Positions 1 to 31,177 of a stretch of 31,497 nucleotides of DNA are shown one piece after another. A model generated the notes under the pieces. The model saw only the letters and a program-made list of their open reading frames with translations. It did no database searches and was not told where the DNA came from. The stretch lies in IMG/VR virus record IMGVR_UViG_3300026543_000083, positions 1-31,497 of that record; one strand, written 5' to 3'. How positions within the stretch are numbered: position 1 is the first letter of the stretch; each line of letters begins with the position of its first letter. A program made the translations under genes and the position numbers. Source of the DNA: a virus (Duplodnaviria > Caudoviricetes).

Positions 1-73
1 ACAAGAAATTATTCTACATTAGAAGTGTTTTATTTAATTGAGGTTCGATATGTGTCAATGAAAATTAGATTGG

Positions 74-586
74 TTATATTGTTACAGTTATTGACCATGA
101 GAGATTCTTTATTGTATGATCTTTTACATTCTCACCCATTTCTTCTAAGATGAATATGTTCATCAAACATTGGAATTTAGACCACTGTTTGTTTACACCA
201 TGTAATAATGTAAATGTAATTGATTTATTATCTGTTATTTTTTTCATCTTCATGTCTGCAATCATACACCATTCCTGAAGCCTTCTCTCAAAGTTTTTTA
301 ATGAAACCACTTCATCTGAAATTTCCCATACAGAAAATTTTCTTTCTGCATGTTTTTTGGCATTTTCCTCGACCCTTTTTGGATCACCAAACATGTCTCT
401 GAGTAATTCTATTTCAACTATCAGCGAATCCTCTTTTGCCTCAAAATATTTTGCATATTTATCAAGAATTCTGGCATAGTATGTTGCAACATGTGGAATG
501 TTTCTTTTCTCTGCACCTTTAGCGAGTTTTTTAATTGAGGATTTTAACACCCTGACACTGACTTGTTCTCGTTCTTCATCTACCAC
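74..586 (-). CDS. Putative transcriptional regulator (RHH-like N-terminus plus alpha/beta C-terminal domain)
   Basis: N-terminal QVSVRVLKSSIKKL..YYARILDKY fits a strand-helix-helix pattern. C-terminal TLLHGVNKQWSKF resembles thaumarchaeal hypothetical regulators (from memory). Confidence 0.5.
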   Translation of the reverse strand: MVDEEREQVSVRVLKSSIKKLAKGAEKRNIPHVATYYARILDKYAKYFEAKEDSLIVEIELLRDMFGDPKRVEENAKKHAERKFSVWEISDEVVSLKNFERRLQEWCMIADMKMKKITDNKSITFTLLHGVNKQWSKFQCLMNIFILEEMGENVKDHTIKNLSWSITVTI

Positions 587-1914: not shown

Positions 1915-3003
1915 GTGCCTAGAAAATGCATGAGAAAAAGCAAAGAAGACTTCTTTGAGCATATTGATAACAAGGACATTAAGACAATCAAGGCATACAG
2001 AATACGAATTAACAATTTTGAAAAATACTGTTTTGAAAAATTTGGCAATGAAGACATTCTATCTCAATTTACTGACAAGGATGATCAAGTAGATTTGTTT
2101 CAAAAATGGGTAAATTGGAATACTAAGAGACGTGCCCCCTCGGCTGTCTGGAATTTAGCAGCTTCTCTTCGAAAATATACGTATTATCGAGGCTGGCAAT
2201 TAGCTCGAGGTGATCTAAGTGATCTAATAGAATTGCCTAAAAAACCAGAAAAAGAATTGTATGGCCTACGAATCCCTGATATACATTCAATTTTTTCAAC
2301 ATTGAACTTTAATGACACATTGCTACATTGCTTTGATGCTGTTTCTGGTACAAGAATTGGTGAATCCGTCCAGCTAAGAAAAAGACACTTTCTATTAGAT
2401 TACGATAGAATAGTAGTAAAAATTCCCTCACATATTGCAAAATTTAGGAGAGCGAGAACAACTTTTGTGACAAAAGAAATTGGTGTAAATCTTCGAACTA
2501 GATTGAAAAAATTAGATGATGCTGATTTAGTATTTGGTACAAAAACTTTCAATGTTAAAGATGATAGAGAAATAATTGCCAGTGCAATTCATAGCTCCAG
2601 TACTGTAAAAGAAGACAATCTAAGACGAGTCTTGATTAAGGTTGGTCTTGATATGAGATACGAAGATACTGGTAGATATTGGATCAATACACATTCATTC
2701 AGAGCCAGATTCATTACTAAAGTTTCAAGACATGATCCTAATTTAGCTAAATTATTTGCAGGTGAGAAAGGATATCTTTTACAATATGATAGAATGGATG
2801 TAGAAGAAAAACTAGAACATTACATGGAGTTTGAACCCTCATTATACATCTTTGATCAAACCATTAATGAAGAAAAGATTAGAAAATTAAAAGAGGCCAA
2901 TATGAAACTAGAAGAACAGTCCCAAAGATTAGATAAACAAGACATACGTATTGCATCTCTGGAAAGAAATTGGATTCGAGATAACGTGAAATCTACTTCT
3001 TGA
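1915..3003 (+). CDS. int: Tyrosine recombinase/integrase
   Basis: Box I GTRIGE, catalytic K in AKFRR, box II HSFR, candidate nucleophile Y in GYLLQY; C-terminal coiled coil. Confidence 0.9.
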   Translation: MPRKCMRKSKEDFFEHIDNKDIKTIKAYRIRINNFEKYCFEKFGNEDILSQFTDKDDQVDLFQKWVNWNTKRRAPSAVWNLAASLRKYTYYRGWQLARGDLSDLIELPKKPEKELYGLRIPDIHSIFSTLNFNDTLLHCFDAVSGTRIGESVQLRKRHFLLDYDRIVVKIPSHIAKFRRARTTFVTKEIGVNLRTRLKKLDDADLVFGTKTFNVKDDREIIASAIHSSSTVKEDNLRRVLIKVGLDMRYEDTGRYWINTHSFRARFITKVSRHDPNLAKLFAGEKGYLLQYDRMDVEEKLEHYMEFEPSLYIFDQTINEEKIRKLKEANMKLEEQSQRLDKQDIRIASLERNWIRDNVKSTS

Positions 3004-8216: not shown

Positions 8217-8413
8217 TGATTCACGCTACCATAGATTCAACTGAGCTAGAAAAGAAAATGATCATAACAATAAACTCACAGGAGTCTCATGTCAATTTAC
8301 TGTCAAGGCAACATGCAGAATCACTATCAAAAATAAATAATCTGGAAATGGAAATTAAAAAACTCAAAGACGAAAACCAAAAGCAAAGAATGGAAAAACT
8401 AAACCAGTATTGA
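8216..8413 (+). CDS. Coiled-coil protein
   Basis: Heptad-like C-terminal half; coupled both sides. Confidence 0.65.
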   Translation: MIHATIDSTELEKKMIITINSQESHVNLLSRQHAESLSKINNLEMEIKKLKDENQKQRMEKLNQY

Positions 8414-9330
8414 GTCTTACATCAATTAACATTCCAACTTCACGAATTCTAGTAGGGGATGTCTTGGAAAAATTATCCATCATCCCAGAATTTACAATTG
8501 ACTGTGTAGTTACTTCAGTACCTTTCTTTGGAGTAAGAAATTACAAAGTAAATGGACAGTGGGGATTGGAAAAAGATCTTGGAACTTATCTGGATAGAAT
8601 GAATCTCATGATGGCAAAAATTTGGAGAATACTAAAACCAACAGGTTCTGCTTGGATTGAAATTGGTGACAAGCGAGACAAGAACGGATGGCTTGGAATT
8701 CCAGAAGAGTTTGCAACGAACCAAAGAAGAAGAGGATGGGGAATCATATCAAAACCAATCTGGTACAAGAGAAACGCAATGCCATTATCTACAAAGAAAA
8801 TGTATTCGCCAAAGTATACTAACATCTATGGGTTTTCAAAGAATGAAAAATATTATTTTGATTTAGATTCTGTAAGAATTCCACCAATAACAAAATCAAA
8901 ACCATTCAATGTTAGAGTTAGGGATACTGCCAAACCAAAATTCCTACAAAAGGCATCTGAAAAAGAAAAACGTGCAGACAATACACTGGGGGCAAATGGA
9001 AAACCGTTACGACATTATCATGGATTTAACGGCAGATATGATCATGCAAAAATTATCAAGAAAGGAAAGAATCCTGGAGACCTATTTGACATTACAGTAA
9101 AGCCATTCAAAGGATTAGACCATTATGCGACTTTTCCTCCAGAACTTCCAGAGAGAATCATCAAGGCATGCTGTCCCAAAGGTGGTATTGTATTGGATCC
9201 ATTCATGGGTTCAGGCACTACAGGCATGGTTTGTGAGCAATTGAATAGAAGATGGATTGGAATTGAGCTAAAAAAAGAGTTTGCAGAGTACGCCATTACT
9301 ACAAGAATAGGAAAAGGAAAACTTGTCTAA
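8410..9330 (+). CDS. Beta-class DNA amino-methyltransferase (N4-C/N6-A) with variant motif IV
   Basis: VVTSVPFF at the SPPY position, WRILKPTG, HYATFP, LDPFMGSGTT, WIGIEL. Confidence 0.9.
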   Translation: MSLTSINIPTSRILVGDVLEKLSIIPEFTIDCVVTSVPFFGVRNYKVNGQWGLEKDLGTYLDRMNLMMAKIWRILKPTGSAWIEIGDKRDKNGWLGIPEEFATNQRRRGWGIISKPIWYKRNAMPLSTKKMYSPKYTNIYGFSKNEKYYFDLDSVRIPPITKSKPFNVRVRDTAKPKFLQKASEKEKRADNTLGANGKPLRHYHGFNGRYDHAKIIKKGKNPGDLFDITVKPFKGLDHYATFPPELPERIIKACCPKGGIVLDPFMGSGTTGMVCEQLNRRWIGIELKKEFAEYAITTRIGKGKLV

Positions 9331-17058: not shown

Positions 17059-18264
17059 GTGGTAAAGATTCCTGTGGCAAGGATGATAGAGGTAACGAAA
17101 GTTAAAACTCATCCAAATAATGTAAAAGAACATCCAGAAAAACAAATCAATAATCTCATGCAGCTAATCAAGTGGGTTGGTTTCAAGGATCCAATCGTAC
17201 TGGATAAACGAAATGAACTGAAAGCAGGACATGGAAGACTCATTGCAGCTAAAAAATTGGGAATGACTGAAGTTCCGTATGTATTGTTAGAAGGACTTAC
17301 AAAAAAACAAATGGACTTGTTCATCTACATGGACAATCAAATTAATGAATCTCCCTGGATAAAAGATAACGTAGAGCTAATCCTAAAAGATATTCCAATG
17401 AAAGACTTGGAGATGTTTGAATTGGACTGGGACGATATAAGAAAACCAGAGTATCCAGAAGAAGAGCCAATACCTGAACCACCTACAAAACCAAAAGCAA
17501 AACTAGGTGACATCTATCAGTTGGGAAATCATAGAGTAATGTGTGGAGATTCTACTAAAGACTTGGATGAACTACTTGATGGCATAAAGATAGATCTGCT
17601 ATTGACTGATCCCCCCTATGGAATTAATATTGTTCATGGCGGAAGTGTGGGAATTTCCCCCAATCTTGGTTTTGTTGGATTTGAAAAAAAAACAAAATCT
17701 CGTTTAATTGAAGGTAGAAAATATAAATCAATAATAGATGATGACAAACCTTTTGAACCTGAGTTTTTATTATCTCTAGCTAAGACTATGATAATTTTTG
17801 GAGCTAATCACTTTGCTAGTAAACTTCCTGATAACAGTCATTGGCTTGTATGGGACAAAAAATTAGAGGGAGGACTAGATCATAATAATTTTTCAGATGT
17901 AGAACTAGCTTGGACAAATGTAAAGAAAAAATCATCATTAATCTATCGTCATTTATGGTCTGGTCTATTAAGAGCAGGAGACAGAAAAACAGAACTAAAA
18001 GAAAGAGTACATCCAACTCAAAAACCTGTAGGACTACTATCAGAGATCATCAAAGATTACTCTAAAGAGAACAATACAGTACTAGATTGTTATCTAGGTT
18101 CAGGCTCTACACTAATTGCCTGCGAACAGACAGGAAGAACATGTTTTGGAATGGAAATAGACCCAGTATACATTGACGTAATAATTCAAAGATGGGAAAA
18201 TTACACAAATCAAAAGGCTAAACTGCTACCAAAAGAATCTCTAAATCTTATTAAGAATCAATAG
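17059..18264 (+). CDS. ParB/Srx-domain DNA N6/N4-methyltransferase fusion
   Basis: GFKDPIV..AGHGRLIAA (ParB); LGNHRVMCGDST, TDPPY, HPTQKP, LDCYLGSGST, GMEIDP. Confidence 0.92.
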   Translation: MVKIPVARMIEVTKVKTHPNNVKEHPEKQINNLMQLIKWVGFKDPIVLDKRNELKAGHGRLIAAKKLGMTEVPYVLLEGLTKKQMDLFIYMDNQINESPWIKDNVELILKDIPMKDLEMFELDWDDIRKPEYPEEEPIPEPPTKPKAKLGDIYQLGNHRVMCGDSTKDLDELLDGIKIDLLLTDPPYGINIVHGGSVGISPNLGFVGFEKKTKSRLIEGRKYKSIIDDDKPFEPEFLLSLAKTMIIFGANHFASKLPDNSHWLVWDKKLEGGLDHNNFSDVELAWTNVKKKSSLIYRHLWSGLLRAGDRKTELKERVHPTQKPVGLLSEIIKDYSKENNTVLDCYLGSGSTLIACEQTGRTCFGMEIDPVYIDVIIQRWENYTNQKAKLLPKESLNLIKNQ

Positions 18265-18302: not shown

Positions 18303-18755
18303 ATGAGCAAACTATCGATAGCCAAAGAAAAGGCTATGCGTGAATCCTTTCTGAAATATCCTACAAAATCAGATCATGATATAGCAAAAATTGTAAAGAT
18401 TAGCCAGCCCACAATATCAAAATACAGAAAAGAACACGCATTAGCAATAGATGCCGAGTTCATATCAATTGTAGCAGGCAAATTCATCTTTGAATTCGGA
18501 CAAGCCATACAGCATTGGAAATTACTCATAGAAGAACTAGAAGTACTAAAAACTGGAAAGAAAACAATAATCAAACAAAACTCAGAGACTGGCGGATTCT
18601 TCAAATCAGAAGTAGATTTGGAACCGATGGACAAATTACAATTAATAAAAGAACAAGCAACACTACGATCAAGAATATTATTCCTAGCAAGCCAAGGAGA
18701 AGTAAGAGAGGTAATTAAGGTGATGAGGTCTGGACAGCTTCCAACAGCTACTTAG
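18303..18755 (+). CDS. terS: Putative terminase small subunit
   Basis: N-terminal HTH (SDHDIAKIVKISQPTISKYR), helical body, position directly before the terminase ATPase. Confidence 0.6.
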   Translation: MSKLSIAKEKAMRESFLKYPTKSDHDIAKIVKISQPTISKYRKEHALAIDAEFISIVAGKFIFEFGQAIQHWKLLIEELEVLKTGKKTIIKQNSETGGFFKSEVDLEPMDKLQLIKEQATLRSRILFLASQGEVREVIKVMRSGQLPTAT

Positions 18756-19779
18756 CGATGCCAAGAAGGCCGGTATTAGTAATAATACTGAGCAGTCAGA
18801 AACATCATTATCATCTATTGAACTATGTAACTTTCTAGGAACATTACCCTTCTGGTGTGGCAATAATACACTACACAAAGAGAATCCAGACTATCAACAT
18901 ACTGCCAAATGCTGCACTACCCACATTGTAGGTTTACCGAGACATCCAGCAACAAACGAAGAGATGCCACTCACACCATACCAAGTAGATTTTGCAACTA
19001 AGGTAATCAACGGCAGACTCAAGTTTGGGGATGCCACAGCCCAAATGAGAAAGGCCCTAAAGATGCACATCAAAAAGGGTAGGCAGATGGGCTTTACTGA
19101 GATAGTATTACGTCTTATCTTACATCTCACATTCTCAAGGTATGCTGGCGCCAACATAGGAATAATGGCAGCTACTAATGGCTCACTAGCAAAGAAAGAT
19201 CTGAGAAGACTTGCCCTTTTATTCAAATCAATTCCTATTGTAGTTGAACAATGGATTAAATCAAACACACTACGAATCGTTAATGGAACGGTAGTTGAGG
19301 CGTTTGCAGCATCAGAAGAAGCAATGACTGGTGATACAAAATACAAAGCCATTTTGGTGGATGAATCTGCAAAATGGAGATTAGTAGATGACACACCTGT
19401 GTTTAACTCCATTCTACCTATAGTTAGAACAAATGGCTGTGATCTGTATTTGGTATCTACTACAAAGGGGCCAGTTAAGATGTTCTATAAGATAGACATG
19501 GATCATGATGAATCAGACTGGGTATTCTTTGTGTATGATATTTGGAAAGCAGAAGGGAACCTCTACACTAAAGCTGAAATAGATGAAATGATAGCATCAT
19601 CTGCTGAAGACCCAAGCCAGGAATATCTATGTGAGTATAGTATTGGCAAGGATTCAATCTTTGGTAATGTATCTGCAGAGGACCAACAGGGAATGAGTGA
19701 ATGGCTAAGTGATGATGATGGTGATGATAACTATGACGAAATAAAAGACAAGGATGGGATTCATTGGCATGAAAATTAA
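18730..19779 (+). CDS. terL: Terminase large subunit, stand-alone ATPase domain
   Basis: LTPYQ adenine motif, KKGRQMGFT deviant Walker A, ILVDES Walker B, VSTT motif III, QEYLCEY linker. The frame is open from 18727; CTG at 18730 follows GGTGA. Track start 18964. Confidence 0.85.
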   Translation: MDSFQQLLSDAKKAGISNNTEQSETSLSSIELCNFLGTLPFWCGNNTLHKENPDYQHTAKCCTTHIVGLPRHPATNEEMPLTPYQVDFATKVINGRLKFGDATAQMRKALKMHIKKGRQMGFTEIVLRLILHLTFSRYAGANIGIMAATNGSLAKKDLRRLALLFKSIPIVVEQWIKSNTLRIVNGTVVEAFAASEEAMTGDTKYKAILVDESAKWRLVDDTPVFNSILPIVRTNGCDLYLVSTTKGPVKMFYKIDMDHDESDWVFFVYDIWKAEGNLYTKAEIDEMIASSAEDPSQEYLCEYSIGKDSIFGNVSAEDQQGMSEWLSDDDGDDNYDEIKDKDGIHWHEN

Positions 19780-19825
19780 TAAGAAAATAATTCAAGATTT
19801 AACCTTATTAAGAAATTAAAAATTA

Positions 19826-20377
19826 TTGAAAACTCTTAAACTGTTAATTGGCGACCCAGCTAAAACAAATGATCCTTTTGGTGTTATAGGATTAGAAGGA
19901 ACATATCCTGAAAAGAAAATCTACACAAGACATGCAAAACAATTCAAGAGAGAACCATACAGAACAGTAGCTGATCATTTCTATAACATGCACAAAAAGA
20001 TTAACTTTGATCTAATGATATTAGAAAAGAACTTTGACTATGAGAATATATCAAAGGCATTTGCACATCTGCCAATTACTTACGTATCTACATCTTCTAA
20101 TCTAACTAAACAAACAAGAGCTAAAGGGTATAGTGTAGACAAACCATTCATGATAAAATGGTTAAAGAAAGAATACAAGAAACATACTGTACAGTATCCA
20201 ACAAATCAATCAGTAGACATGCAAGAACTAATCAATCAACGAAACCAGATAGTAGGGATCACTGCACCATCTGGACATGTATCATACAAAGCGCAAAGGA
20301 GTAGACATGATGATTTATTTCTATGTGAGTTAATAGGATGCAATGCAATTAGAATATGGTGGGATCAACAACAATAA
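19826..20377 (+). CDS. Terminase RNase H-like nuclease domain, intact active site
   Basis: IGDPAKTND, ILEKN, RHDDLFL. Confidence 0.8.
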   Translation: MKTLKLLIGDPAKTNDPFGVIGLEGTYPEKKIYTRHAKQFKREPYRTVADHFYNMHKKINFDLMILEKNFDYENISKAFAHLPITYVSTSSNLTKQTRAKGYSVDKPFMIKWLKKEYKKHTVQYPTNQSVDMQELINQRNQIVGITAPSGHVSYKAQRSRHDDLFLCELIGCNAIRIWWDQQQ

Positions 20378-20490
20378 TGAATCACACAAATTCTCTTTTT
20401 GATATTTTTCAGATGTGGAGATATCTAGACTACCGAAAAGATGTACCCTATAGGAAAGAGATACTATTCATACTGAGGACTATGCCATGA
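20377..20490 (+). CDS. 37-aa linker ORF; not in the ORF track
   Basis: MNHTNSLFDIFQMWRYLDYRKDVPYRKEILFILRTMP; TAATG and ATGA overlaps with both neighbours. Confidence 0.5.
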   Translation: MNHTNSLFDIFQMWRYLDYRKDVPYRKEILFILRTMP

Positions 20491-21215
20491 AGAATCAACT
20501 AATCGTAGCACTATCCTACACAAAACAAAGAACAATGTTTGGTATGGTCGGCATAGAAGTAGACCCTTCAAAAAGAATTGCGTTTGTCAGACTAGCAAAA
20601 CAGTGGAGAAGAGATGACATGAACTCTATCCCTGGAGATATCAAAGAGGCTTATTCAAAAGTAAAATGGCATATTACTTTTGCAGATCAATTGATTGGAC
20701 AGCACCTGATTCGCTCTATAGAAAACGCATTACACTTTGAGGTAAGCACAATCACCACACAAAAGAATCTCAAGGACCCTGAAGATATCGAACTAATCAA
20801 AGTAATGGATATGACAGAGATGACACAGCTAACCCTATCACTAAAGCAGGAACATAAGATACAGTTCCCTCCAAAGAACCCTAGTCATGACATGATTGAT
20901 TTAATCAAGCAGATGGAGATGTTTACAGAACACACTACAGAACAGGGAACAATATCATACTATGCACCAGGAGATGAGTTGGATTGTCTACCAAGAGCAC
21001 TAATGATCTGCTGCTTTGTTGGGAGGATGTCTTTACAGCATGGAGAGATGCCAATGATAATCAAACGTGGTGGAGAAGACTTGACACAAAACAATACTCA
21101 TGACGATTTAGACCAATGGCTAAACGATACCTTTGGTGGCAATGAATCTCTTAGCGAATACAACATGAACCGAATCAGCAGAAAGAGACTGTATGAGACA
21201 AAGAAAATGTTTTAA
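20487..21215 (+). CDS. Second terminase nuclease-like paralogue, degenerate active site
   Basis: Colinear similarity to 19826-20377; the first catalytic Asp position reads VALSY. Confidence 0.7.
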   Translation: MKNQLIVALSYTKQRTMFGMVGIEVDPSKRIAFVRLAKQWRRDDMNSIPGDIKEAYSKVKWHITFADQLIGQHLIRSIENALHFEVSTITTQKNLKDPEDIELIKVMDMTEMTQLTLSLKQEHKIQFPPKNPSHDMIDLIKQMEMFTEHTTEQGTISYYAPGDELDCLPRALMICCFVGRMSLQHGEMPMIIKRGGEDLTQNNTHDDLDQWLNDTFGGNESLSEYNMNRISRKRLYETKKMF

Positions 21216-21409
21216 ACCTTGTAAAATTAATTACAGTAATGCAAAATAAAATATTGAGATTCATTTCACCACGAGATTGTATATCTATGCTATTGTTACA
21301 AAATATCATAAATAATCTACCTACAGGAAATGAAAAATACGAGCATGTTACATTGAAAAATTAATAAGAAAATAACATTCTTTATTTTAATTCATTAGAG
21401 ATTAACTGC

Positions 21410-23065
21410 GTGTCACAAGAAGAAGCCACGCTTGACGATAAAAACCTCAATCAACTAGAAGGACTTTCCATAGTCAAAGTACGAGACATTGAATACAAAA
21501 TAAACCTAGATGACTCCATTTGGAAGGCAGGACCAGTAAAGTTTGCACAAATACCTGCATGGCATCAGAACGGCCAGATAAGACCAACAAGTGCAAGAGG
21601 ACTTGCTACATCTAACAATACTAAATGGCTAAAGAAGATGGCACCATTTGAAAACTTTCAGATATTCCCCAGTGTAGACCCATATCCTTCAGAGTTACGA
21701 CAACTACTCAGAATACTAAACGAAGAAAACCCTTGGATAGTAAAGTCACAAGAGATAATTCAAAAACTTGTAGTTACAAAATTTACAACAGAAATGGTTC
21801 CACGTGATAATTCACAGATGAATCCAGACGAATTAGAGAAATGGCAAGACACACCAATAGAAGTTGAATTCTTTGATGAAAAGGTTACACCTAACCAAAT
21901 CAAAAAATGGATAGATAATTTTTCTCAAACCTTAGACCTTAAGGATTTACTATATGATGCGTACATGTTTGCACGAGAACAAGGAAGAACTGCAATTGGA
22001 ATGTTTCCTGAACAAAGAGATGAGGATGGCAAATATCAGATGCCTCAAGCATTACGATTAATCAGACCAGAATTACTACGAAGACCAATTGTATCATTTC
22101 AAACATCAGAACTAATTGCAGTGGAAGTTACTGGACTAACAAGTAACGGATCACGCTTTGATGCAAATAGACTCATCTACATACAGAAAGGAAAAAATTT
22201 AGATTTGTTCTCTGACTTTTACGGAAAGAGTGACATACGAGCACTAGCTGATATTGGTAAAGTTGGACTTGTATTGTATGGTAGGGACTATCTAGCTGCA
22301 ACAATCAGCACTTGGCACACACCATACATATTCAAGCATACAGTTCCAGGAAAAAACTTTTCAGAAATTAACCAAATCATGGATCAATTCAATATTGACT
22401 TGGCAAACAATGCAGGAAAGGATATTTCCGTATCATACAATGTTGAATTATTAAACCCAGGAGGATCAAACCCTGGCGACATTGCAGGACTAGTACTAAT
22501 TGATAATCAACAGATTGAAACAATTGCTGGTAGAACTGGCATCCCATTATTCTTGTTATCCAAAGGAAAAACTGGAAACATGGGAGGCAACGCAAACCAG
22601 GAAGAAGCTGACGGATTCATAGAAAACGAGATTGACCCAGAACAGGAAATGCTAGAGCAAGTAGTGGAGAGGCAGTTCTATGATAGAGTATTAGCTATAA
22701 TGTTTGATGTAGAGCCAAGAGATGTTACTGATGTTCCAATTAGATTATTACATAAATTTGAAAATGCTGTAATTCAAACCGAGGTAGCCCCTGAGAAATT
22801 TAACATGACAATGAATTTGATGGATAGGGGATTAACTACTCCAGAAAAGGCAATGGACAAGTTAGGACTCTCAGACATGCTAATAGGTGACACTTCCTCT
22901 ACTGGTGGTGATACTACTCCAACTGTAAAGACCTGGCCAATCTCAAACAATTTTGATAACCATCAGGAAACAATGCACAATGCAAAGTTAGGATTACTTG
23001 ATGAGGCCCGAGAGACACTAAAGCTGCAAAATGTCGAAAGAAGAAACAAAGCAACCGCCGTTTAG
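21410..23065 (+). CDS. Portal protein
   Basis: 551 aa after the terminase genes; LRLIRP, LIYIQ..DFYGKSDI, IAGRTGIPLFLL, GLTTPEKAMDKLGL patterns. Confidence 0.85.
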   Translation: MSQEEATLDDKNLNQLEGLSIVKVRDIEYKINLDDSIWKAGPVKFAQIPAWHQNGQIRPTSARGLATSNNTKWLKKMAPFENFQIFPSVDPYPSELRQLLRILNEENPWIVKSQEIIQKLVVTKFTTEMVPRDNSQMNPDELEKWQDTPIEVEFFDEKVTPNQIKKWIDNFSQTLDLKDLLYDAYMFAREQGRTAIGMFPEQRDEDGKYQMPQALRLIRPELLRRPIVSFQTSELIAVEVTGLTSNGSRFDANRLIYIQKGKNLDLFSDFYGKSDIRALADIGKVGLVLYGRDYLAATISTWHTPYIFKHTVPGKNFSEINQIMDQFNIDLANNAGKDISVSYNVELLNPGGSNPGDIAGLVLIDNQQIETIAGRTGIPLFLLSKGKTGNMGGNANQEEADGFIENEIDPEQEMLEQVVERQFYDRVLAIMFDVEPRDVTDVPIRLLHKFENAVIQTEVAPEKFNMTMNLMDRGLTTPEKAMDKLGLSDMLIGDTSSTGGDTTPTVKTWPISNNFDNHQETMHNAKLGLLDEARETLKLQNVERRNKATAV

Positions 23066-29047: not shown

Positions 29048-29953
29048 ATGGTAAGCAGCAAACAAGAATCATGTGTTCAAAATATTCTATCTAAAAAATT
29101 ATCTCCTGGACAAACTGCATCAAAGCAAGATTTAGCAATTACATTTTCTGAATGCAGAGACAAACAAGCTTCAATGTCTTTACAAAATTTAAAACTAAAA
29201 CTTGCATCAGCAAAAATATCTAACATACTAAGACATCCTTATCTTACTGCATCACTAAACACTGAATTTGTTCCAGATCCTATAAAGCAAGCAGAAGGAA
29301 ACTATGCAAGTTATTTTTTGTTACAAGGCGATACAATTAATGGACGAGAATGGGGAGTCACATCTGAATCAATTCCTGCAAACATTCAAACTTTCATTGG
29401 TAGACCACTAGTAGCTACGGGTAATAAATTCGTCAAGGATTCACCGTATGGAGTACAGTATCTACACCCAAGCATTACGCATTTCATGCAAAAATCACCG
29501 GAATTAGTAGCTGGGCTAAACCCAATGAACATGAATGATATTTTACAATTCCAAGACAAATTTAAAATCGGAACCATTAGCGATGTATTTTTTGATGGAA
29601 CAAAAAATGTATGGAATAGTGTAGTGCGATTAGCCGACGGTGTTGAAGCAAGTGATCTTCCTCCATTTTGTTCTCCTGCATTGTACCAGCTTGACATGAC
29701 AGAACGTGAAGGCAGTCTAACTAAATGGACCGGACTACATTTGGCAGCTCTTGACATAAGACCAGCTTACGGAAGCATTGCTTTACTTAATGGAACATGT
29801 CATGGAACTACAAGTACATGCACAACACAGTTTGCAGGAAATCAAAATATGTTAACATCAGATATTATAAAAATTGCAGCTCAGTTATCTACACAAAACA
29901 GAAACGTAGACAAAGTTATTATTGCAAAAAAGAAAAACAAAAAAAGTTATTAA
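29048..29953 (+). CDS. Putative prohead maturation protease
   Basis: INGREWGV..FIGRPL..HP...FCSPAL...GLHLAALDIRPAYG resembles HK97/assemblin-clan proteases; position before the scaffold. Confidence 0.7.
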   Translation: MVSSKQESCVQNILSKKLSPGQTASKQDLAITFSECRDKQASMSLQNLKLKLASAKISNILRHPYLTASLNTEFVPDPIKQAEGNYASYFLLQGDTINGREWGVTSESIPANIQTFIGRPLVATGNKFVKDSPYGVQYLHPSITHFMQKSPELVAGLNPMNMNDILQFQDKFKIGTISDVFFDGTKNVWNSVVRLADGVEASDLPPFCSPALYQLDMTEREGSLTKWTGLHLAALDIRPAYGSIALLNGTCHGTTSTCTTQFAGNQNMLTSDIIKIAAQLSTQNRNVDKVIIAKKKNKKSY

Positions 29954-29996
29954 GAAAAACAATGAGCTTATATCTTAAAATCCGATAGATTCAATC

Positions 29997-30614
29997 GTGA
30001 GAACAAAAACACAAATTTTGAAAACAGCATCTACACTAAAAGAATTTTCAACTAAAATTAAATCTGCTCAAATTGGTGAGACATTAACTCCTGAAACTGT
30101 ACAAGAGATTGCACAAGAAATAATGGAAGTTGCATCAGTTGCAGCAGAACTTGCAAACGAAATTTCAGAAGGTGTTCCAGCAGAAGAAGAGTCTCGAGAT
30201 GCATTAGGTGATAGAGGAGAACAAGAAGGACCTGAACAAATCGAAGTTGCAGCAGACGAAACAGACGATGAAAAGAAAAAGAGAATGCAAAAAGAAGCAC
30301 AAGATAAAGACAAAGATGAAGATAAACAAAAAATTAAAAATTTAGAGGCAAGTTTACAAAAAATGCAAAGAGAAACAAAACTTGCAAAACTAGCACCAAA
30401 GTATGCTAGCCTATTTCCACAATCAATGCATGAAACTAAAATGAATGAAATTATTAATTCAAAACAATCTCTACAAATTGTAGAGGCAAAAATCCAAGAA
30501 GCCAGTGATATTATCAGCAATAAAACAATGGTAAAGATTGCATCAATGACTGATTCAATCTATGACTTAGATACAACAGAAGGAGGCGAGATTGATATCT
30601 CGGGTACAATTTAG
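29997..30614 (+). CDS. Putative scaffolding protein
   Basis: Highly charged, helical/coiled-coil; between protease and capsid genes. Confidence 0.7.
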   Translation: MRTKTQILKTASTLKEFSTKIKSAQIGETLTPETVQEIAQEIMEVASVAAELANEISEGVPAEEESRDALGDRGEQEGPEQIEVAADETDDEKKKRMQKEAQDKDKDEDKQKIKNLEASLQKMQRETKLAKLAPKYASLFPQSMHETKMNEIINSKQSLQIVEAKIQEASDIISNKTMVKIASMTDSIYDLDTTEGGEIDISGTI

Positions 30615-30616
30615 AT

Positions 30617-31177
30617 ATGTCTACTCAATTCCCAACTGGTCCAACCAGGCAAGTACAGGCAGGAGATACACCTGATCTTAATGATGGATTACTATCAAGA
30701 ACAATAGTAGCATCCCTAAACCTTGCAAGAGGAAATGCATGTCTTTTAGTAAATGGAGAGATTGTACTCTCAACTCTTGCTTTAATGGCTGCAGGCCATG
30801 CACCATTTGTACCAATTGAATCAGTGGATAATACTGGTGATGGATTGGAAGCATCTGGAGTTGAAGCCCCACAAAGAGTAGCCTTATTGCTTGAAGCATC
30901 TTCAGCAGCATTAGATCCTGGTGAGTTTGTAAAACCATCAAACAATGCAGATGGAACAGTAGAGAAATGGGTCCCAACAACTGATGCTCATTTTGAAAAA
31001 TATGCAAAATATCTCGGTAAAGAAGCAGCATTATTGGATAGAGACACATCAACACCATTTGATGAAACACTAACTGTCGGTATTGTTCCAGATCAAACAT
31101 TAACTCCAACTGCAACAGCAGCTGACAATGTTGGATGGTTCCAACTAATGGAAGCCGGAGGAGGAGCAGCAACATAA
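30617..31177 (+). CDS. Putative capsid decoration/cement protein
   Basis: Beta-tulip-like pattern (LARGNACLL..ALDPGEFVKPS..GTV); position before the capsid gene. Confidence 0.55.
   Translation: MSTQFPTGPTRQVQAGDTPDLNDGLLSRTIVASLNLARGNACLLVNGEIVLSTLALMAAGHAPFVPIESVDNTGDGLEASGVEAPQRVALLLEASSAALDPGEFVKPSNNADGTVEKWVPTTDAHFEKYAKYLGKEAALLDRDTSTPFDETLTVGIVPDQTLTPTATAADNVGWFQLMEAGGGAAT

What the first reader, a model, noticed from the sequence alone, without database searches (positions are those of the whole stretch)
18730..21215. Three-part large terminase: stand-alone ATPase, active nuclease and degenerate nuclease paralogue
Seen: the ATPase ORF ends soon after the QEYLCEY linker in an acidic tail. 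A 46-nt AT-rich gap with two late-motif copies follows, then two colinear homologues (HAKQFKR/LAKQWRR, VSTSSNL/ITTQKNL, KKHTVQYP/QEHKIQFP, LINQ..SGHVSYKA/LIKQ..QGTISYYA, RHDDL/ELDCL). Copy 1 keeps the acidic residues (GD..D, E, DD). Copy 2 has Ser at the first Asp position and a C-terminal extension. Established: TerL is normally one ATPase-nuclease chain whose C-terminal domain cuts DNA and in several phages contacts the portal. Inference: cutting and structural or portal-docking roles are divided between exchangeable subunits, which could switch the motor between cleavage and translocation. I do not know of a described case.
Basis: partly seen in the sequence, partly recalled or inferred. 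Interest (0 to 1): 0.85.

Follow-up and report, generated by a model that had tools for sequence, protein, structure and literature searches.

The report
Three-gene archaeal virus packaging motor
A virus that likely infects ammonia-oxidising archaea encodes its DNA-packaging enzyme, normally one protein, as three separate conserved genes: a motor, a predicted DNA cutter, and a copy of the cutter that has lost two key catalytic residues and likely serves as a docking part, which would let the cutting and docking jobs be studied apart.

Summary
Real and lineage-wide, not an assembly error. The large terminase is three genes: ATPase (18730-19779), N1 (19826-20377) and N2 (20487-21215). All 15 closest viral loci have the same three separate genes in this order, with ATPase-N1 gaps from -14 to 1,143 nt. 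Both N1 and N2 models match terminase nuclease domains best (Z 16.6, 14.7). N1 keeps the full acidic active site. N2 lacks the equivalents of G20c D294 and D429, yet is under purifying selection (dN/dS 0.04-0.16). Relatives with a split ATPase and one nuclease carry the catalytic site together with N2's hairpin and C-tail, so the two copies have divided the features of a single-copy form. The ATPase tail is longer, with a second acidic-Trp motif, where two nucleases occur. Best reading (0.55): N1 cuts, N2 is the non-cutting motor/portal-docking subunit. That role is inferred from analogy (SPP1, phi29) and moderate covariation. 'Exchangeable subunits' is untested. Host is likely Nitrososphaeria. 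Nine literature searches found no description. This scan noted a similar three-gene terminase before, on other DNA (actinobacterial prophages).

The parts
18303..18755 (+). Likely small terminase subunit (150 aa, N-terminal HTH); overlaps the ATPase start by 26 nt
   Evidence: phrog_2538 terminase small subunit E 0.002; position; tblastn relatives upstream of the ATPase in 5 of 15 loci
18730..19779 (+). Stand-alone TerL ATPase, 349 aa, likely CTG start; Walker A K116-G-R118-Q119, Walker B D211-E212 (motif labels from general knowledge)
   Evidence: Pfam Terminase_6N E 1.3e-6, phrog_2 E 2e-12; K116, R118, Q119, D211, E212 invariant in 22 of 22 aligned
19618..19779 (+). ATPase C-terminal region from QEY: acidic tail with two Trp (W325, W346), candidate tethers for the two nuclease subunits (inferred)
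   Evidence: 44-71 residues in 21 of 22 two-nuclease loci, 28-33 in single-nuclease loci
19776..19815 (+). Two copies of TTAWTAAGAAA (19776-19786, 19805-19815); the first is 50 nt before the N1 start, the spacing seen before other structural genes; promoter or activator site is inferred
   Evidence: starts: 6 of 7 plus-strand copies lie 49-53 nt before a start codon
19826..20377 (+). N1: stand-alone terminase nuclease domain, 183 aa, intact acidic site (D10, E67, D163; D16, H161, D162), basic loop K155/R158/R160, no C-tail, pI 9.5
20487..21215 (+). N2: terminase-nuclease-fold paralogue, 242 aa, with S10 and C167 at two catalytic Asp positions, D67 and D166 kept, acidic hairpin/loop, pI 6.1
21036..21215 (+). 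N2 C-terminal tail (residues 184-242), low-confidence in the model, variable; candidate portal-binding segment (inferred)
   Evidence: pLDDT about 56-65 from residue 191; tail-portal covariation
21410..23065 (+). Portal protein, 551 aa, with a motif copy at 21361-21371, 49 nt upstream
   Evidence: Pfam Phage_portal E 1.9e-7, below the curated cut-off; phrog_12 E 0.00056

Best explanation
The large terminase of this virus lineage is encoded as three separate genes, and the two nuclease-fold genes likely divide the two jobs of the normal nuclease domain: N1 is predicted to cut the DNA, and N2, which lacks two of the three catalytic acids, likely stays on the motor as a non-cutting subunit that would link the ATPase to the portal. 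Shown: three separate conserved genes, the fold of N1 and N2, the residue losses, purifying selection on N2, and split single-nuclease relatives that carry both feature sets. Inferred history: fused TerL, then fission into ATPase and nuclease, then duplication with subfunctionalisation. Inferred mechanism: the ATPase acidic-aromatic tail replaces the covalent linker, with one motif per nuclease subunit; N2's conserved surface contacts the ATPase, its variable tail contacts the portal; N1 is engaged for the initiation and termination cuts.
For: Architecture: 15 of 15 loci from the single-protein ATPase scan (14 distinct sequences) have ATPase, N1, N2 separate and in order; the profile scan gave 20 such loci of 27, 1 single-nuclease locus and 6 distant (24-27%) ORFs of 556-580 aa. 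Folds: N1 Z 16.6, rmsd 2.6, 155 aligned to G20c nuclease; N2 Z 14.7, rmsd 3.0, 153 aligned to D6E, Z 14.3 to G20c. Active site: N1 D10, D16, E67, D162, D163 invariant in 119 of 119; N2 has Asp at position 10 in 0 of 112 with a residue there and non-Asp at 167 in at least 119 of 120; G20c D294N, D347N and D429N have the lowest activity (PMC5389553, passages). Selection: N2 dN/dS 0.04-0.16 in 8 of 9 pairs, one saturated. Partition: of 63 columns conserved in 36 active long-tailed proteins, 17 are kept by N1 only (the catalytic ones among them), 13 by N2 only, 16 by both, 17 mixed; residues after the last Asp column: median N1 22, N2 73.5, single-type 61.5. ATPase distances track N2 (r 0.67; partial 0.54) better than the adjacent N1 (r 0.51; partial -0.20) in 18 loci. 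Tail similarity tracks portal similarity (partial rho 0.38, 0 of 2000 permutations) more than the core does (0.10) in 26 loci. Precedent: the SPP1 nuclease domain binds the portal and D266N/D321N still packages (PMC3592435, passages); phi29 uses a vestigial nuclease domain (PMC7672431, abstract).
Against: N1 and N2 track each other (r 0.86) more than either tracks the ATPase, which fits an N1:N2 pair or plain linkage. The tail-portal signal is confounded by relatedness and by the tail lying next to the portal gene, and it is not significant when only N2-versus-single pairs are used (rho 0.11, 410 of 2000 permutations). The ATPase-tail contrast probably reflects one evolutionary event, and has exceptions: L063 (two nucleases, short tail), L008 and L019 (one Trp), and L135 (one nuclease seen, long tail with two Trp). 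The tree does not resolve N1 and N2 as sisters, so one duplication is not shown. N2 keeps D67, D108, D166 and several near-invariant Glu, and more distant N2-type proteins often keep the last Asp.
Confidence: 0.55

Rival explanations
1. N2 is mainly the partner and regulator of N1: an N1:N2 heterodimer in which the acidic, non-cutting copy holds, positions or silences the basic cutting copy, with portal docking done elsewhere.
For: N1-N2 distances correlate best (r 0.86, partial 0.82); N1 and N2 overlap by 4-11 nt in 10 of 19 loci; N1 net charge +10, N2 -4; RuvC-fold nucleases often act as dimers (general knowledge).
Against: Adjacency alone can give that correlation. N1 was exchanged or diverged apart from ATPase and N2 in L017 and L006 (nearest neighbours). 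N2 keeps the C-tail and hairpin of single-copy nucleases, which have no paralogue to pair with.
Confidence: 0.2
2. N2 is a decoy or inhibitor aimed at host defences that sense terminase, not part of the motor.
For: Terminase-sensing defences exist (an Avs3-terminase structure is among the fold hits; its biology is recalled). Earlier scan notes describe dead terminase-domain copies read as mimics (e1-6084428, e1-5324888; unchecked).
Against: N2 is present in 15 of 15 close loci, at a fixed place between N1 and the portal side, and is as constrained as the ATPase and portal; it lost the active-site residues a sensor might read.
Confidence: 0.08
3. N2 keeps an altered catalytic activity (for example nicking, or one of the two cuts) through a rearranged acidic site.
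For: D67 (D 117, E 3 of 120), D108, E111, E148, D166 invariant and E152, E164 in 119 of 120; several distant N2-type proteins keep the last Asp, and one keeps the first instead.
Against: The first Asp, which binds both metals in G20c, is absent in 112 of 112 close homologues; no N2-type row among the 117 classified keeps both first and last Asp; E164 and D166 are also present in active single-copy forms, where they lie beside the catalytic site.
Confidence: 0.08
4. The split is only apparent: an assembly error, or recoding/splicing rebuilds a fused ATPase-nuclease chain.
For: ATPase and N1 overlap by 1-14 nt in 10 of 19 loci; recoded terminases are proposed in Streptomyces phages (PMC10732093, passages) and trans-spliced ones shown in mirusviruses (PMC12768974, passages).
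Against: Gaps run from -14 to 1,143 nt, in all three frames, over 400 nt in 8 of 19 loci and often holding other ORFs. An independent contig has 360 nt of other sequence between ATPase and N1. The best 150 of 189 N2-profile hits are all 303 aa or shorter. No intein-like sequence is evident at the ends.
Confidence: 0.03

Closest known systems
One-chain TerL of tailed viruses (G20c/P74-26, D6E, SPP1 gp2, T4 gp17, Sf6 gp2; Pfam Terminase_6N + Terminase_6C)
   Same: ATPase motifs, RNase H-like nuclease fold (Z 13-17), acidic active site in N1, place between TerS and portal
   Different: ATPase and nuclease are separate genes, and there is a second, catalytically degenerate nuclease-fold gene
Nitrososphaera provirus Nvie-Pro1 TerL (FR725450.1)
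   Same: Only match for the ATPase among 50,697 GenBank phage records (27% identity, E 5e-7); same host class inferred
   Different: One 456-aa chain; no N2 match in that collection
Split single-nuclease terminases found here (L065, L071, L081-L085, L097, L098, L107; also L134-L136, L140 in Nitrososphaeria genomes)
   Same: Stand-alone ATPase with acidic-aromatic end, stand-alone nuclease of 200-260 aa, related portals
   Different: One nuclease gene holds both the catalytic site and the C-tail; the ATPase tail is usually shorter. Not found described in the papers searched
phi29 gp16 C-terminal vestigial nuclease (PMC7672431, abstract)
   Same: A nuclease-fold domain without activity that still works in the motor
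   Different: Fused to the ATPase, in a virus with no active paralogue of it (the latter from general knowledge)
Trans-spliced terminases of mirusviruses/alloherpesviruses (PMC12768974) and split-intein or bypassed phage terminases (PMC2677866 listing; PMC10732093)
   Same: ATPase and nuclease parts lie apart in the genome
   Different: Those are rejoined, or proposed to be rejoined, into one chain; here junctions are not conserved and a second nuclease copy exists
Three-gene terminase of actinobacterial prophages (earlier scan notes e1-5964586, e1-5931766; unchecked AI notes)
   Same: ATPase + altered nuclease + intact nuclease
   Different: There the intact nuclease is on the opposite strand and the altered copy lies beside the ATPase; no look-alike of N2 was found by sequence, so likely an independent case

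Membership tests
Large terminase (TerL) | Terminase-type ATPase domain with Walker A/B and linker | tested here: met
   Terminase_6N E 1.3e-6; phrog_2 E 2e-12; invariant K116, R118, Q119, D211, E212, QEY
Large terminase (TerL) | RNase H-like terminase nuclease fold | tested here: met
   N1 Z 16.6 to 5m1f; N2 Z 14.7 to 5oe8, ranks 1-14 all terminase nucleases; the single-copy relative L065 hits Terminase_6C at E 1.3e-6
Large terminase (TerL) | ATPase and nuclease in one polypeptide | tested here: not met
   Separate ORFs in the window and in 15 of 15 close loci; gaps -14 to 1,143 nt
Large terminase (TerL) | Catalytic carboxylates equivalent to G20c D294, D347, D429, in N1 | tested here: met
   D10, E67, D163 invariant in 119 of 119; register from aligned range 1..176 to 285..442, counted in from the ends
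Large terminase (TerL) | The same carboxylates in N2 | tested here: not met
   S10 and C167 at D294 and D429 positions (range 1..180 to 285..442); D67 kept
Large terminase (TerL) | Gene lies between TerS and portal | tested here: met
   phrog_2538 E 0.002 upstream; Phage_portal E 1.9e-7 downstream
Large terminase (TerL) | ATP-driven packaging, DNA cleavage and portal binding | not testable with these tools
   needs biochemistry
RuvC/Ydc2 Holliday-junction resolvase (for N2 or N1) | Fold closer to RuvC than to terminase nuclease | tested here: not met
   RuvC Z 10.2 against 14.7 for N2 and 10.6 against 16.6 for N1
Recoded, trans-spliced or split-intein terminase | Conserved junction (frame, slip site, intein or splice signal) that restores one chain | tested here: not met
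   Gap length and frame vary freely; other ORFs lie in the gap. RNA-level joining itself was not tested
phi29-type motor with vestigial nuclease | Inactive nuclease-fold domain fused to the ATPase, no cutting terminase | tested here: not met
   N2 is a separate gene and an intact N1 and a likely TerS are present; N2 may work like it without belonging to it

The most novel reading that the evidence does not exclude
A heteromeric packaging motor: the ATPase ring docks on the portal through non-cutting N2 subunits, while the cutting subunit N1 is a dissociable module held by a second acidic-Trp motif of the ATPase tail and recruited only at initiation and headful termination. The cut/translocate switch would be a change of subunit composition, not a domain movement, and the same solution would have arisen separately in archaeal viruses and actinobacterial phages.
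Probability: 0.3. Interest if true: 0.9.

Novelty: new variant of a known kind. Interest (0 to 1): 0.76.

Why it matters
How the terminase nuclease domain both supports translocation at the portal and is kept from cutting until the head is full is a long-standing question; in SPP1 active-site mutations often disturb both jobs (PMC3592435). Here evolution appears to have put the jobs on two genes, and fused, split-single and split-double forms all survive for comparison. The positions kept only by N2 give a short list of candidate motor/portal contacts. The family is also nearly invisible to annotation (N2 has no Pfam, PHROG or NCBIfam hit; N1 only weak ones), so these thaumarchaeal viruses may be misread as having truncated terminases.

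Tried and rejected
Complex prediction (ATPase 36-349 + portal 60-490 + N2): score 0.30 against a mark of 0.32, verdict 'no answer'; not used for or against. N1 was not in that job. Sequence searches of the PDB with N1, and with the N1, N2 and ATPase profiles, gave nothing significant. A search for longer (353-2000 aa) proteins with the N1 alignment found none among 7,048 candidates, which the tool calls weak evidence; distant fused relatives did appear at low scores. Sequencing runs: no RNA holder listed, best share of words 0.14; the four runs laid are contigs of relatives, and no near-identical record bridges the 46-nt gap of this strain. The idea that nuclease tails mimic the N-terminal arm of their own portal gave only a slight diagonal (17.1 and 16.7 against 14.1-16.9): not accepted. 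My recollection that Nvie-Pro1 TerL is split was wrong. The ESM Atlas returned Terminase_6C-containing clusters at 0.95-0.96, and BFVD returned terminases at 7-15% identity: consistent, no new information. Literature: searches found no description of a split terminase with a duplicated nuclease; 'split terminase' had 0 hits. The library lacks most subscription papers; the original Nvie-Pro1 and Marthavirus papers (recalled) were not read, and no supplements were opened. An earlier count said 16 contigs; the checked count is 15 loci, 14 distinct.
Full report
Setting. The window is a whole 31,497-nt virus record with a XerA-like recombinase (E 3e-6), two DNA methyltransferases and a head module: likely TerS (18303-18755), the finding, and a portal (21410-23065). 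The host is likely an ammonia-oxidising archaeon. Four of six genome-contig matches to the ATPase profile are titled Nitrosopumilus and two are the same sequence in a MAG titled Gammaproteobacteria. The only match among 50,697 GenBank phage records is the Nitrososphaera provirus Nvie-Pro1 (27%), and 19 of 401 genomes drawn from the class of the Nitrosopumilus MAG hold a match to the nuclease profile.

Observation. The three ORFs are as described. The ATPase (Terminase_6N E 1.3e-6) most likely starts at CTG 18730, where several relatives have Met. N1 and N2 are paralogues (25% identity, E 2e-10; profile probability 99.55%). The motif TTAWTAAGAAA occurs 8 times against 0.15 expected. Six of its seven plus-strand copies lie 49-53 nt before a start codon, one of them 50 nt before N1, which supports the N1 start. 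A close form of it is in the ATPase-N1 gap in only 2 of 19 loci, so it is not part of the conserved feature.

The split is real. All 15 loci found with the ATPase (14 distinct; 51-79% identity) have ATPase, N1 and N2 as separate ORFs in this order; in one (L020) the ATPase is itself frameshifted. The wider profile scan gave 27 loci: 20 three-gene, 1 with a single nuclease, and 6 distant ORFs of 556-580 aa at 24-27% identity. ATPase-N1 gaps range from -14 to 1,143 nt in all three frames, exceed 400 nt in 8 of 19 loci and often hold other ORFs (start positions chosen by homology). A contig from an independent run has 360 nt of other sequence between ATPase and N1. N2 has 180 relatives at 90% clustering within the lengths searched; of 189 hits among 50% representatives, searched without a length limit, the 150 listed are all 303 aa or shorter. 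This excludes an assembly error as the cause of the architecture and makes recoding unlikely. The exact junction of this strain was not bridged by near-identical reads.

Folds and active sites. Models were confident (N2 pLDDT 84.7, N1 90.9). N1 matches the G20c terminase nuclease at Z 16.6; N2 matches D6E at Z 14.7 and G20c at 14.3, with terminase nucleases at ranks 1-14 and RuvC at 10.2 (Foldseek agrees). Counting in from the ends of the aligned ranges, which assumes no gap in the first strand and last helix, N1 D10 and D163 fall on G20c D294 and D429, and N2 S10 and C167 fall on the same two residues. D294, D347 and D429 are reported as indispensable, D428 and H427 as auxiliary (PMC5389553, passages). 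N1 keeps D10, D16, E67, D162 and D163 in 119 of 119 aligned sequences (107 of the 120 listed hits, after dropping N2-type rows, fragments and the window's own, plus the window and 11 loci). N2 has no Asp at position 10 in 112 of 112 rows with a residue there and a non-Asp at 167 in at least 119 of 120, but keeps D67 and D166. Among 117 representatives of 170 aa or more, 70 had the full site, 25 lacked both end Asp and 22 were partial or truncated; several distant N2-type proteins keep the last Asp. N2 is not decaying: dN/dS is 0.04-0.16 in 8 of 9 pairs (one saturated), like the ATPase (0.07-0.16), N1 (0.06-0.22) and portal (0.06-0.15).

A single-copy form explains the pair. Many relatives have a stand-alone ATPase followed by one nuclease gene and, where the contig is long enough, a portal (L065, L071, L082-L085, L097-L099, L107); more distant split forms occur in Nitrososphaeria genomes, next to fused ones. 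These nucleases have the catalytic residues of N1 and the W40, G71-x-H73, hairpin and G162-x-E164 features and long tail of N2. Of 63 columns conserved in 36 active long-tailed proteins (two known single-copy loci and 34 representatives without genomic context), 17 are kept by N1 only, 13 by N2 only, 16 by both and 17 are mixed (40 sequences sampled per paralogue). N1 gained K155, R158 and R160 beside the active site, and the tail after the last Asp column has medians of 22 (N1), 73.5 (N2) and 61.5 (single-type). In trees N1 and N2 are each one clade (100/99 and 98/98) rising from an unresolved group of single-copy forms; their sisterhood and the root are not resolved. Fission followed by duplication and subfunctionalisation is the simplest reading, but the order is inferred.

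Hints about partners. (1) The ATPase region from QEY is 44-71 residues in 21 of 22 two-nuclease loci, with two or more Trp in 19 of 22. It is 28-33 residues in 14 of 15 single-nuclease loci (the fifteenth was mis-anchored by the script and reads 29), with at most one Trp in 15 of 15. Exceptions are L063, L008, L019 and L135, and the contrast may be a single event. (2) In 18 loci ATPase distances follow N2 (r 0.67) better than N1 (0.51), though N1 lies between them; N1 and N2 follow each other best (0.86). (3) In 26 loci tail similarity follows portal similarity (partial rho 0.38, 0 of 2000 permutations) more than core similarity does (0.10), but the test across classes is not significant (410 of 2000), and relatedness and linkage are not controlled. 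These are moderate, indirect signals.

Mechanism. In SPP1 the nuclease domain anchors the motor at the portal, and the D266N/D321N protein still packages (PMC3592435, passages); phi29 uses a vestigial nuclease domain in its motor (PMC7672431, abstract). I therefore read N1 as the cutter and N2 as the non-cutting subunit that links ATPase and portal, both tethered through the ATPase tail (0.55). Rivals: N2 as N1's heterodimer partner and regulator (0.2), a defence decoy (0.08), an enzyme with a rearranged site (0.08), a recoded or mis-assembled fusion (0.03).

Relation to what is known. A review describes TerL as one ATPase-linker-nuclease chain (PMC7617512, passages). Known separations are rejoined, or proposed to be rejoined, at RNA or translation level (PMC12768974 and PMC10732093, passages). 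Thaumarchaeal provirus surveys mention no split in the passages read (PMC6563490, PMC13573593), and Nvie-Pro1 TerL is one 456-aa chain. Passages of PMC4158269, PMC6393860 and PMC12484599 held nothing relevant. Nine searches found no description; the library is incomplete and supplements were not opened. Earlier unchecked notes of this scan report a three-gene terminase in actinobacterial prophages with a different layout, with no sequence look-alike to N2. Verdict: it works like a TerL, fails the one-chain criterion, and is a new variant of a known kind; interest 0.76.

Noticed in passing
L062 / G001:C1:33281-38055 (Nitrosopumilus MAG chromosome): ATPase followed by three nuclease-fold genes (N2-like, N1, N2-like) and then an ATPase-like ORF that also hits the primase large subunit (E 1.2e-7); no portal hit in the 56 kb fetched.
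   Followed up: partly
G001:C1 near 60502, 1241122, 1244885, 1248263, 1252185, 1257205: Six 75-aa frames; the three read begin like N2 and end like N1, i.e. repeated deletion chimeras of the two paralogues. P0275 also looks like an N2/N1 chimera.
   Followed up: partly
window 13006, 17002, 19776, 19805, 21361, 23607, 28999, 29947: Semi-palindromic motif TTAWTAAGAAA, mostly 49-53 nt before structural-gene starts and followed by an AT-rich TATA-like stretch; candidate site of a dimeric activator for leaderless transcripts.
   Followed up: partly
window 18856-18924 (ATPase residues 43-65): C43, H49, C61, C62, H65 are conserved in three-gene ATPases and missing in the single-nuclease ATPases L065 and L071: a candidate metal-binding insertion.
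   Followed up: no
N2 tails and portal N-termini (L017, L018, L019, L038, L054, L065; L010, L071, L082, L086): Short motifs (GP[LVI]; S[RK]K) appear both in nuclease tails and in the N-terminal arms of the same portal families; the scored test was weak.
   Followed up: partly
L063:7775-10462, L039:3190-5925, L040:3009-5744: Portal ORFs of about 900 aa; the L063 one has LAGLIDADG and intein hits. An HNH-like ORF lies between N1 and N2 in L063.
   Followed up: no
window 29048-31177: Three ORFs with no convincing Pfam or PHROG hit in the place of prohead protease, scaffold and a capsid-associated protein; similar blocks follow the portal in several relatives.
   Followed up: no
L002/L020:2286-3333: The ATPase is frameshifted near residue 177 while N1, N2 and portal are intact; sequence error or broken gene.
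   Followed up: no
window 1915-3003, 8410-9330, 17059-18264: XerA-like recombinase (suggests a temperate virus) and two N6/N4 DNA methyltransferases, one fused to a ParB-like domain just upstream of TerS.
   Followed up: no
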